From: Escherichia phage EcM-vB1
Strand: one strand, 5' to 3'
DNA: 64,000 nt
Sequence record: PV574017.1
Shown here: one piece after another, positions 20,821 to 21,312 of the stretch
Numbering within the stretch: position 1 is the first letter of the stretch
Layout: every line of letters begins with the position of its first letter
Notes under the pieces: generated by a model
Told to the model about the DNA's origin: nothing
Databases searched by the model: none
What the model saw: the letters and a program-made list of their open reading frames with translations, nothing else
Made by a program: the position numbers and the translations under genes

Positions 20821-20986
20821 CTTCTGTAAGAAAGAGAAGCCTGTCGCCAACTTCAAACCTAACCCTGTAACTGGTCTGACCCATGTCATGTGCCACTCTT
20901 GCAGGATATATCTCGAAACAAAGCACACTATCAATAGGTTGCATTATTATCACCCAACAACATTCAAATTTAAGGTTGTGAAATGA
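20801..20986 (+). CDS. small zinc-ribbon protein
   Basis: CSFC...CHSC; internal ATG of track ORF 20732-20986. Confidence 0.4.
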   Translation: MEKKVCSFCKKEKPVANFKPNPVTGLTHVMCHSCRIYLETKHTINRLHYYHPTTFKFKVVK

Positions 20987-21312
20987 TTGACAGTAATACA
21001 TTTAGGACTTCAAATGGAAGTGAGATAAGTCCCGCTGAAGTAATCAATCGGCATAGAAGGCAATTGATCATCCATTCCTATTTGTATTACTGGTTGGATG
21101 ACCCTATCTGGTCTGATGATAAATGGCAACAAGTTGCTAATGATCTAGTGGAGCTGCAAGCTCTATATCCAGAGCCTACCGGAGTCTTTGACAATGAGTT
21201 CAAAGATTGGGATGGTTCTACAGGGATGCACCTCCCACACAATGAGGCTGTTGCTTGTATGGCGACAGCTGTTTACAGGATTCATAAAGATATGAACCAT
21301 GAAGTGCTCTAA
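20983..21312 (+). CDS. protein resembling the N-terminal Ia domain of NAD-dependent DNA ligase
   Basis: HSYLYYWLDDPIWSD...LVELQALYPE pattern. Confidence 0.4.
   Translation: MIDSNTFRTSNGSEISPAEVINRHRRQLIIHSYLYYWLDDPIWSDDKWQQVANDLVELQALYPEPTGVFDNEFKDWDGSTGMHLPHNEAVACMATAVYRIHKDMNHEVL

What the first reader, a model, noticed from the sequence alone, without database searches (positions are those of the whole stretch)
20983..21312. Stand-alone protein resembling the NAD-binding Ia domain of LigA
HSYLYYWLDDPIWSD...LVELQALYPE mirrors the N-terminal helical domain of NAD-dependent DNA ligases without any catalytic domain. It may be a regulator or decoy acting on host ligase or NAD metabolism.
Basis: partly seen in the sequence, partly recalled or inferred. 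Interest (0 to 1): 0.4.

Follow-up and report, generated by a model that had tools for sequence, protein, structure and literature searches.

The report
Phage stand-alone LigA NAD-binding domain
This small phage gene encodes only the NAD-binding "Ia" module of bacterial DNA ligase with no ligase enzyme attached; the family was described computationally in 2022 and its function is still untested, but related copies carry tags and fusions that point to the DNA-replication machinery.

Summary

The window is a Kuravirus-type E. coli podophage. Neither it nor a complete relative encodes any ligase catalytic core, so the common GenBank label "DNA ligase" is wrong.

This is not new. Iyer et al. 2022 described solo Nlig-Ia proteins in 81 phages, using the ortholog ECBP2_0056 as their example, and proposed an NAD+ sensor or shield. 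No experimental study was found.

I add four family-level clues: an invariant second motif (DWDGSTGMHLP) absent from LigA; beta-clamp-binding-type C-terminal tails in 22 of 265 homologs; a fusion to a DNA helicase; and translational coupling to NAMPT in one phage. Placement is consistently in replication modules of ligase-less phages.

My best reading is an NAD+/NMN-binding accessory factor coupled to replication, probably acting through host LigA. That mechanism is inferred, not shown.

The parts
20983..21312 (+). Gene for the stand-alone Nlig-Ia protein (109 aa including the N-terminal Kuravirus-specific extension; stop TAA at 21310-21312)
   Evidence: ORF. Pfam PF22745 E=2.1e-35 over residues 16-102. 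phrog_6466 E=2e-43. dN/dS 0.07-0.16.
20972..20975 (+). Shine-Dalgarno-like AAGG, 7 nt upstream of the ATG
   Evidence: Read directly from the sequence.
21031..21165 (+). LigA-Ia-like two-helix core (residues 17-61). It holds the equivalents of the LigA NMN-contact residues: Y35, Y36, D45, W48, Q49 correspond to E. coli Y22, H23, D32, Y35, D36.
   Evidence: Helices 17-37 and 45-61 in the AF2 model. They superpose on LigA Ia at 0.7-1.1 A over 47-48 residues. Residue correspondence comes from HMMER alignments. These positions are invariant in the 67-sequence alignment.
21199..21237 (+). Family-specific second motif F73-x2-W76-x-G78-x-T80-G81-x-H83-L84-P85 ('FKDWDGSTGMHLP'), absent from LigA
   Evidence: Invariant columns in A1. 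F73/T80/G81 are kept even in Gram-positive phage members. The family profile aligns to LigA only up to E. coli residue ~53.
21244..21303 (+). C-terminal helix (residues 88-107), which completes a ~90-residue fold shared with other solo phage proteins but not with LigA
   Evidence: AF2 model. BFVD hits to solo phage proteins align 87-108 columns at TM 0.73-0.94, whereas full-length phage LigAs align only ~47 columns.
20801..20986 (+). Upstream 61-aa CxxC...CxxC zinc-ribbon ORF whose stop overlaps the Nlig-Ia start (ATGA). This is operon context; a functional link is unproven.
   Evidence: phrog_15951 E=5e-46. Weak zinc-finger Pfam hits.
21299..21484 (+). Downstream 61-aa CxxC...CxxC zinc-ribbon ORF that overlaps the Nlig-Ia 3' end by 14 nt and the PhoH start by 4 nt. 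This is operon context.
   Evidence: phrog_14369 E=1e-45.
21481..22218 (+). PhoH-like P-loop (helicase-related) ATPase, translationally coupled downstream. This is operon context.
   Evidence: PF02562 E=1.7e-56 plus weaker UvrD, AAA_19 and AAA_30 hits. No sigma70-like promoter or terminator on the + strand between ThyX and PhoH.

Best explanation
The gene encodes a non-catalytic, stand-alone NAD+/NMN-binding module of the Nlig-Ia family (PF22745). It consists of the two-helix domain-Ia core of bacterial LigA, with the aromatic pair and acidic/polar residues that clamp the nicotinamide-mononucleotide moiety, plus a family-specific C-terminal lid (DWDGSTGMHLP and a helix). The lid probably completes a self-contained ligand pocket. 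The gene is expressed from the replication and nucleotide-metabolism operon of a Kuravirus that has its own polymerase and primase-helicase but no DNA ligase. I propose that it couples NAD+ availability to phage DNA replication. The most likely route is through the host's NAD+-dependent ligase LigA, the only ligase available to seal phage Okazaki fragments: either by presenting or handing over NAD+, or by docking on the LigA nucleotidyltransferase domain as a trans-acting Ia. That would keep nick sealing going when NAD+ is scarce, for example after NADase defences fire. What is shown: the fold, conserved ligand-contact residues, absence of any ligase core, purifying selection, replication-module context, and clamp-motif, helicase and NAMPT associations in relatives. 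What is inferred: NAD+/NMN binding itself and any interaction with LigA or the replisome. The identity claim (solo NAD+/NMN-binding Ia module) deserves about 0.85-0.9 confidence. The figure given below applies to the replication/LigA-coupled mechanism.

For: No phage ligase: no LigA core or T7-type ligase in the window or the whole SU10 genome, nor in Arthrobacter phage Adolin or Clostridium phage CS42, which do encode a polymerase plus primase/helicase. Erwinia phages with full LigA and those with the solo gene are different genomes among the rows shown. PMC9503650 reports 80 of 81 solo-bearing phages without any ligase.

Replication link: the gene lies in the ThyX...PhoH...DNA polymerase operon. 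In Dp-1 it lies between RecA and the DnaX/HolA clamp loader, near a phage DnaN. In Adolin it follows primase/helicase, Pol I and an HNH gene. In CS42 it lies between NrdD and NrdG/primase. 22 of 265 homologs end in Q-x-x-[LM]-F after a disordered linker: 21 observed in tails against 0.002 expected, none internal, in at least 6 lineages. This matches the beta-clamp-binding consensus QL(S/D)LF, and the E. coli clamp contacts ligase and accelerates ligation (PMC9690074, PMC4549789). ReqiPoco6 Gp102 is Nlig-Ia fused to an SF2 DNA helicase (phrog_62, E=9e-66).

NAD link: in Weasels2 the solo gene overlaps the 3' end of an NAMPT gene, with a PRPP-synthase-like gene upstream.
Against: The window protein itself has no clamp-binding tail and no helicase fusion, so the replisome link is borrowed from relatives that are 40-55% identical. 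No interaction with LigA, the clamp or any replisome protein has been shown for any family member. The family-specific C-terminal module may make ligand binding fully autonomous, which fits a free sensor or buffer just as well. LigA's own Ia is tethered in cis and would out-compete a trans-acting domain unless the phage protein binds far more tightly. Placement in 'replication modules' is partly generic, because many early and middle phage genes sit there. The anti-correlation with phage ligases rests on a handful of independent lineages.
Confidence: 0.4

Rival explanations
1. Free cytoplasmic NAD+ sensor or NAD+ 'shield' (the published proposal). The protein binds soluble NAD+ and either reports its depletion by host NADase effectors to the phage, or sequesters a pool of NAD+ from those effectors, independently of any ligase.
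For: Proposed for exactly this family, with the ECBP2 ortholog as the example, in PMC9503650. Ligand-contact residues are conserved. The invariant extra motif and C-terminal helix suggest a self-sufficient pocket. NAMPT coupling in Weasels2. Some carrier phages also hold NAD+/ADP-ribose genes: a VIP2-like ART in Adolin and a Macro domain in SU10.
Against: A 109-aa protein has no output domain, so a sensor still needs a partner. Stoichiometric shielding of a millimolar metabolite looks implausible (my own knowledge of E. coli NAD+ levels). The proposal does not explain the beta-clamp-type tails, the DNA-helicase fusion or the clamp-loader neighbourhood. It also does not explain why solo-bearing phages lack ligases. 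The Macro gene is absent from this window's phage while Nlig-Ia is retained. There is no PADLOC hit.
Confidence: 0.3
2. Inhibitory decoy of host LigA. The solo Ia docks on the LigA nucleotidyltransferase domain, or captures the NMN end of bound NAD+, and blocks adenylylation, shutting down host replication and repair.
For: Same fold and ligand residues as the domain that normally closes over the LigA active site. Clamp-binding tails could place it where LigA works.
Against: The phage and its solo-bearing relatives encode a lagging-strand replication apparatus but no ligase of their own, so inhibiting LigA should harm the phage. Phages known to take over ligation usually bring their own ligase (one search shows 1,272 phage records with a LigA core), and those are not the solo-bearing genomes among the rows shown.
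Confidence: 0.1
3. Reader of NAD-capped nucleic acids. The NMN-recognising module binds the 5'-NAD cap of RNAs or of NAD-initiated primers, working with helicase-type ATPases such as PhoH or the fused SF2 helicase.
For: Ia recognises specifically the NMN half of NAD+, which is the exposed part of an NAD cap (PMC7470946; the cap argument is my own inference). The gene is translationally coupled to a PhoH-like ATPase and fused to a helicase in ReqiPoco6.
Against: There is no direct evidence. No RNA-binding features were detected. PhoH linkage is not conserved outside Kuraviruses.
Confidence: 0.05
4. Trans-acting subunit of a split phage DNA ligase, or a decaying remnant of a former full-length ligase gene (which is what the GenBank label 'DNA ligase' implies).
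For: Many records annotate it as 'DNA ligase' or 'NAD-dependent DNA ligase'. One solo-bearing phage in PMC9503650 does have a separate catalytic module. T5-like phages are annotated with ligase 'subunit A' genes.
Against: There is no nucleotidyltransferase, OB, HhH or BRCT sequence in the window or in the complete SU10 genome by phmmer, tblastn or Pfam. The gene has strong purifying selection, a family-specific conserved motif and about 592 clusters of short stand-alone proteins, so it is not a remnant. K74 in 'KDWDG' is not conserved and the spacing differs from the ligase KxDG motif.
Confidence: 0.03

Closest known systems
Solo Nlig-Ia proteins of phages (Pfam PF22745; exemplar ECBP2_0056; Iyer, Burroughs, Anantharaman & Aravind 2022, PMC9503650)
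   Same: It is the same family and effectively the same gene. The window protein is ~75-77% identical and syntenic (ThyX ... Nlig-Ia ... PhoH) to ECBP2_0056. It scores 121.7 bits on PF22745, is stand-alone, and sits in a ligase-less phage.
   Different: Nothing essential differs. I add family-level features not mentioned in that paper: the invariant DWDGSTGMHLP motif, beta-clamp-type C-terminal tails, a DNA-helicase fusion, NAMPT coupling, and copies in a ParAB/integrase element of Janthinobacterium.
Domain Ia of bacterial NAD+-dependent DNA ligase LigA (e.g. PDB 5tt5, 1tae, 1dgs, 3jsl)
   Different: It is not attached to nucleotidyltransferase, OB, Zn, HhH or BRCT domains. E. coli Y35 is W and D36 is Q in this clade. 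It has an extra ~45-residue C-terminal module with an invariant motif that has no LigA counterpart. It cannot ligate DNA.
Proteins carrying the bacterial beta-sliding-clamp binding motif QL(S/D)LF (polymerases, MutS, Hda, transposases, ligase partners)
   Same: 22 of 265 family members end in Q-[LMAG..]-[SGA..]-[LM]-F after a disordered Pro/Ala-rich linker, including an exact QLSLF. This matches the consensus and its C-terminal position.
   Different: The window protein lacks the motif (it ends ...HKDMNHEVL). Clamp binding has not been tested for any member.
Phage NAD+ salvage and reconstitution genes (NAMPT/NadV-type cassettes)
   Same: In Rhodococcus phage Weasels2 the solo gene overlaps the end of an NAMPT gene next to a PRPP-synthase-like gene. 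Both concern NAD+/NMN supply during infection. That such cassettes counter NAD+-depleting defences is suggested in PMC11662467 and is also my own knowledge.
   Different: Nlig-Ia has no recognisable catalytic residues or enzyme fold. The window phage has no NAD+ salvage genes that I detected.

Membership tests
Pfam PF22745 Nlig-Ia (stand-alone phage LigA-Ia-like NAD+-binding domain) | Scores above the curated gathering threshold of the family HMM over nearly its full length | tested here: met
   121.7 bits against a cut-off of 27; E=2.1e-35; model positions 1-90 of 92.
Pfam PF22745 Nlig-Ia (stand-alone phage LigA-Ia-like NAD+-binding domain) | LigA domain-Ia-like helical fold | tested here: met
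Pfam PF22745 Nlig-Ia (stand-alone phage LigA-Ia-like NAD+-binding domain) | Conservation of the NMN/NAD+-contacting residues of LigA Ia (E. coli Y22, H23, D32, Y35, D36) | tested here: met
   Y35, Y36, D45, W48 and Q49 are at the equivalent positions and are invariant in 67 homologs. The changes are conservative (H to Y, Y to W, D to Q), and other clades keep [FY]-D.
Pfam PF22745 Nlig-Ia (stand-alone phage LigA-Ia-like NAD+-binding domain) | Stand-alone architecture in a genome without a ligase catalytic module | tested here: met
   109 aa. Homologs are 69-189 aa. No LigA core or ATP-ligase in the window or the SU10 genome.
Pfam PF22745 Nlig-Ia (stand-alone phage LigA-Ia-like NAD+-binding domain) | Actual binding of NAD+ (or NMN) | not testable with these tools
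   Needs ITC, DSF or a co-crystal. It has only been predicted, here and in PMC9503650.
NAD+-dependent DNA ligase (LigA), as many GenBank records annotate this gene | Nucleotidyltransferase (adenylation) domain with the catalytic lysine motif KxDG | tested here: not met
   Only Ia matches: LigA residues 1-53 and 12-51. 'K74-D-W-D-G' has the wrong spacing and K74 is variable.
NAD+-dependent DNA ligase (LigA), as many GenBank records annotate this gene | OB fold, Zn finger, HhH and BRCT DNA-binding domains | tested here: not met
   The protein is 109 aa. No such Pfam hits. No matches elsewhere in the window or SU10 to Ia-deleted LigA.
Beta-sliding-clamp binding proteins (QL[SD]LF motif) | Terminal or exposed Q-L-x-L-F-type pentapeptide | tested here: not met
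   Absent from the window protein (C-terminus ...HKDMNHEVL). Present in 22 of 265 family members.
Known anti-phage defence or counter-defence families in PADLOC | Match to a PADLOC-DB model | tested here: not met
   No hit at E<=0.01 for the gene or its three small neighbours.

The most novel reading that the evidence does not exclude
Solo Nlig-Ia proteins are replisome-tethered adaptors that hijack the host's NAD+-dependent ligase. The phage Ia-like module holds the NMN end of NAD+ and docks on the LigA adenylation domain as a trans-acting, higher-affinity domain Ia. Clamp-binding tails, helicase fusions or, in Kuraviruses, contacts with phage replication proteins place this complex on phage DNA. 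This would keep Okazaki-fragment sealing running on phage genomes when host NADase defences collapse the NAD+ pool, and so would be a new type of counter-defence aimed at the most replication-critical NAD+ consumer.
Probability: 0.2. Interest if true: 0.75.

Novelty: already known. Interest (0 to 1): 0.38.

Why it matters
The family is widespread: about 592 clusters at 50% identity, found in phages of Proteobacteria, Actinobacteria and Firmicutes and in some integrative elements. Phages have excised one domain of an essential bacterial enzyme and kept it as a free protein, yet nobody has tested what it does. If it acts on or with host LigA, it would link NAD+-depleting immunity directly to DNA ligation and reveal a new way for ligase-less phages to secure nick sealing. 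If it is a free NAD+ sensor, it would be a minimal natural NAD+/NMN-binding module of biotechnological interest; PDB 8jyd is listed as a genetically encoded sensor based on a bacterial DNA ligase. There is also a practical point: dozens of GenBank phage records call this gene 'DNA ligase' or 'NAD-dependent DNA ligase', and a genus-level paper repeats it (PMC9965538). That wrongly implies Kuraviruses ligate their own DNA.

Tried and rejected
1. Split-ligase idea for this phage. phmmer and tblastn with E. coli LigA, Ia-deleted LigA and T7 ligase against six-frame translations of the window and the whole SU10 genome found only the Ia segment hitting this ORF. Pfam on ten large unassigned ORFs found no ligase domains. 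Rejected.

2. Zinc-ribbon 'Rosetta stone'. Homolog P0010 carries a C-terminal CxxC...CxxC ribbon, but it has no significant similarity to either flanking zinc-ribbon ORF of the window. Only a fold-class coincidence remains.

3. Fusion proteins P0182 and P0206. The extra C-terminal domain matches phrog_13900 ('minor head protein') and gives only a sub-threshold Mu Gam/Sipho_Gp157 hint (E=0.011). The PDB sequence search gave low-complexity ankyrin noise. The single-sequence AF2 model failed at pLDDT 39. Left unresolved.

4. 'KDWDG' as a cryptic ligase KxDG motif. Rejected because K74 is variable and the spacing is wrong.

5. Weak Imm41 Pfam hit (21.2 bits, below the 26.9 cut-off). Treated as noise on the same helix.

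6. Macro-domain partnership. SU10 has a Macro gene, but it is deleted in this window's phage, so it is not an obligate partner.

8. Literature searches for experimental work on the family, on Kuravirus/NAD, or on phage proteins acting on LigA found nothing relevant. Apparent 'LigA' hits in PMC12931631 were the word 'ligand', and one search returned only noise.

9. PADLOC gave no hit.

Full report
**Observation.** An AAGG ribosome-binding-like element sits 7 nt upstream. The start codon overlaps the stop of an upstream 61-aa zinc-ribbon ORF (ATGA). The 3' end overlaps a second 61-aa zinc-ribbon ORF by 14 nt, and that ORF in turn overlaps the start of a PhoH-like ATPase gene. No sigma70-like promoter or terminator lies on the + strand between ThyX (19914-20570) and PhoH (21481-22218); the first terminator-like hairpin is at 22897-22922. 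The gene is therefore part of a tightly packed, co-directional operon.

**Is the resemblance real?** Yes.
- The protein matches Pfam PF22745 'Nlig-Ia: DNA ligase-like, N-terminal NAD+-binding domain' at E=2.1e-35 (121.7 bits against a cut-off of 27) over residues 16-102.
- It matches PHROG 6466 at E=2e-43.
- A single-sequence search of PDB sequences finds LigA N-termini only weakly (E~0.05), but a profile of 67 homologs reaches E. coli LigA at E=3.3e-4.
- An AlphaFold2 model built on that alignment is confident (pLDDT 90.2, pTM 0.81), with helices at 17-37, 45-61, 70-73 and 88-107.

**Same as and different from LigA Ia.**
- HMMER alignments map E. coli Y22, H23, D32, Y35 and D36 onto phage Y35, Y36, D45, W48 and Q49. 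These five residues are reported as essential for reaction with NAD+ by Sriskanda & Shuman 2002. That paper is cited, but the residue list itself is from my own knowledge.
- All five phage positions are invariant in the 67-sequence alignment.
- In Gram-positive phage members the last two positions are [FY]-D, exactly as in LigA.
- A review confirms that Ia orients the NMN leaving group and that the nicotinamide stacks between a pair of Ia tyrosines (PMC7470946). Here that pair is Y35 and W48.
- Homology to LigA ends at the 'HPE' end of Ia, E. coli residue ~53.
- The remaining ~45 residues carry a second invariant motif, F73-x2-W76-x-G78-x-T80-G81-x-H83-L84-P85 ('FKDWDGSTGMHLP'), followed by a helix. 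F73, T80 and G81 survive across the widest span.
- In the viral structure library the whole ~90-residue fold recurs in other solo phage proteins (TM 0.73-0.94), whereas full-length phage LigAs match over only ~47 residues.
- I infer, but could not check without model coordinates, that this Gly/Thr-rich loop completes a ligand pocket that the nucleotidyltransferase domain helps form in LigA.

**Genome and gene status.**
- The window is 100% identical over 3 kb to Escherichia phage EcP-vB and ~97% identical to SU10. It is a Kuravirus/Gordonclarkvirinae (phiEco32-like) podophage.
- It aligns to SU10 coordinates ~0.6-66 kb.
- Neither the window nor the complete SU10 genome contains any LigA catalytic region or T7-type ATP ligase (phmmer --max and tblastn; Pfam on ten large unassigned ORFs; SU10 annotation).
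- The phage does encode a DNA polymerase with a separate exonuclease subunit, a primase/helicase, thioredoxin, ThyX, dCTP deaminase and a 5'-3' exonuclease.
- The gene is under strong purifying selection: dN/dS 0.11 against ECBP2_0056 (75% aa identity), 0.07 against SU7, and 0.16 against a metagenomic relative.
- Many GenBank records label it 'DNA ligase' or 'NAD-dependent DNA ligase', and a genus paper repeats this (PMC9965538). That annotation is wrong.

**Prior knowledge.** Iyer, Burroughs, Anantharaman and Aravind (Viruses 2022, PMC9503650, section 3.5.1) made the following points.
- They named the domain Nlig-Ia and reported it as a solo protein in 81 phages, giving ECBP2_0056 as the example. 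That gene is the syntenic ortholog of the window gene.
- They noted that all but one of these phages lack any ligase and that the ligand-binding residues are conserved.
- They proposed an NAD+ sensor or NAD+ shield against NADase effectors.
- They do not mention clamp motifs, helicase fusions or PhoH.

I found no experimental study. The finding is therefore already known as a computational prediction and remains functionally uncharacterised.

**Family survey.**
- All 120 best homologs among 5.8 billion proteins are 69-189 aa.
- An exhaustive profile search of 1.84 billion representatives gives 1,094 clusters at E<=1e-3 and 592 at E<=1e-10. Of the 150 best listed, all but three (P0182, P0206, P0219) are under about 215 aa.
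- In GenBank phages the family occurs in Escherichia/Shigella Kuraviruses, Arthrobacter, Rhodococcus, Clostridium, Enterococcus (Herelleviridae), Streptococcus Dp-1, Erwinia/Salmonella jumbo phages and others.
- It is rare in bacterial genomes: 7 loci among 185,579 species genomes.
- One of those copies sits in a Janthinobacterium mobile element with the order IS200/IS605 - Nlig-Ia - ParA - ParB, with an integrase nearby.

**New contextual clues.**
1. *Clamp-type tails.* 22 of 265 family members end, after a Pro/Ala-rich linker of 35-106 residues, in Q-x-x-[LM]-F at the extreme C-terminus (QMSLF, QLSLF, QASLF, QGSLF, QMALF and so on). Tail shuffling expects 0.002 such cases against 21 observed. 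The pattern never occurs internally, and it is found in at least 6 lineages under 60% identical. The Janthinobacterium and Massilia genomic copies have it too. Another 17 members end in a basic tail plus LF, and 11 begin with M(x)xLF. This matches the bacterial beta-clamp-binding consensus QL(S/D)LF / QLxLF, which is typically C-terminal. The E. coli clamp also contacts DNA ligase and accelerates ligation (PMC9690074, PMC4549789).
2. *Helicase fusion.* Rhodococcus phage ReqiPoco6 Gp102 (541 aa, one continuous ORF) is Nlig-Ia (E=1e-32) fused to an SF2 DNA helicase (phrog_62, E=9e-66). ReqiPepy6 has the same gene.
3. *NAMPT coupling.* In Rhodococcus phage Weasels2 the solo gene overlaps the 3' end of an NAMPT-type gene (NAMPT_N plus the NAPRTase family domain), with a PRPP-synthase-like gene two genes upstream.
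4. *Neighbourhoods.* In Dp-1 the gene lies between RecA and DnaX/HolA, near a phage DnaN. In Adolin it follows primase/helicase, Pol I and HNH. In CS42 it lies between NrdD and NrdG/primase. A Kuravirus-like metagenomic relative has the order DnaB ... thioredoxin - ThyX - Nlig-Ia::Zn-ribbon ... polymerase.
5. *Mutual exclusivity with ligases.* Whole-genome checks of Adolin and CS42 show a polymerase plus primase/helicase but no ligase core, with a working positive control. Erwinia jumbo phages with a full LigA and those with the solo gene are different genomes among the rows displayed; a few weaker Erwinia LigA hits were not listed, so this is not exhaustive.

**Mechanism.**
- What is shown: a LigA-Ia fold with conserved NMN-contact residues, no catalytic capacity, selection, a replication-operon setting, and a ligase-less genome.
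- What is inferred: that it binds NAD+ or NMN, and what it does with it.
- I favour (0.4) a replication-coupled accessory role through host LigA. These phages make Okazaki fragments but must borrow LigA. Relatives are physically directed to the clamp or fused to a helicase. One is co-translated with the NMN-producing enzyme. A trans-acting or NAD+-presenting Ia would secure ligation when NAD+ is limiting.
- The published free sensor/shield idea (0.3) fits the ligand site and the self-contained extra module. It does not explain the clamp tails, the helicase fusion or the anti-correlation with ligases.
- An inhibitory decoy (0.1) conflicts with the phage's dependence on LigA.
- An NAD-cap reader (0.05) is not excluded.
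- A split or decayed ligase (0.03) is refuted for this genome.
- A caveat applies to all of this: the window protein itself carries none of the tethers, so the replisome link is by homology only.

**Verdict.** The object is an already described, widely distributed but experimentally untouched phage family. It has moderate interest, raised slightly by the clamp-motif, helicase and NAMPT clues, which give the open question of its function concrete, testable directions.

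Noticed in passing
window 20801-20986 and 21299-21484 (+): Two unrelated 61-aa CxxC...CxxC zinc-ribbon ORFs (phrog_15951 and phrog_14369, both of unknown function) bracket the Nlig-Ia gene with overlapping start and stop codons. 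One relative (P0010) has a different zinc ribbon fused to Nlig-Ia, but it is not similar to either of these.
   Followed up: partly
window 24124-24152 (+): A perfect 12/12 sigma70 consensus promoter (TTGACA-17-TATAAT with an extended -10 TG) lies within the first ~55 nt of the listed DNA polymerase ORF (24097-25941, GTG start). Either the true polymerase start is further downstream or this is an internal promoter.
   Followed up: no
window 29667-30225 versus SU10 (L001) 34447-35005 and 33997: The Macro-domain (Appr-1-p processing) gene and one HNH gene present in SU10 are absent from this phage (no tblastn hit anywhere in the window), while Nlig-Ia is retained. The ADP-ribose-processing gene is therefore a variable accessory in Kuraviruses.
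   Followed up: yes
window 3634-12082 (+): A phiEco32-type amidoligase cluster: COOH-NH2 ligase type 2 (5804-6610), Amidoligase_2 (7234-8337), and an ATP-grasp-like ORF (11372-12082). It also holds several large ORFs with no Pfam hit (3634-4830, 4936-5811, 6620-7237).
   Followed up: no
window 20587-20820 (+): A 77-aa ORF matches phrog_4452 'anti-restriction nuclease' (E=1.5e-31), just upstream of the zinc-ribbon/Nlig-Ia/PhoH block.
   Followed up: no
L027 3450-5075 (Rhodococcus phage ReqiPoco6 gp102): A 541-aa protein annotated 'DNA ligase' is actually Nlig-Ia fused to an SF2 DNA helicase (phrog_62). No ligase domain is present.
   Followed up: yes
L020 1027-4288 (Rhodococcus phage Weasels2 genes 170-173): The gene order is PRPP-synthase-like, HNH, NAMPT, solo Nlig-Ia, with the last two genes overlapping. 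This is an NAD+ salvage cassette directly coupled to the NMN-binding module.
   Followed up: partly
proteins P0219, P0182/P0206, P0220/P0225/P0246/P0258: Unusual family architectures. P0219 has two full Pfam Nlig-Ia repeats and a third, weaker profile match in 321 aa. P0182 and P0206 carry a ~200-aa C-terminal domain (phrog_13900, faint Mu Gam/Gp157 hint). A subgroup has both an N-terminal M(x)xLF and a basic C-terminal ...LF, which may be two clamp-binding peptides.
   Followed up: partly
L024 3678-5735 (Arthrobacter phage Adolin gene 4): The capsid maturation protease is annotated as fused to a VIP2-like ADP-ribosyltransferase (an NAD+-consuming toxin domain), in a phage that also carries solo Nlig-Ia.
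   Followed up: no
GenBank records listed: The same 109-aa gene is annotated variously as 'DNA ligase', 'NAD-dependent DNA ligase', 'hypothetical protein' and even 'baseplate hub assembly protein' (phage O18-011). In NJ01 the surrounding genes carry names such as 'isoleucyl-tRNA synthetase' and 'putative NAD+ diphosphatase', which look like mis-annotations.
   Followed up: no
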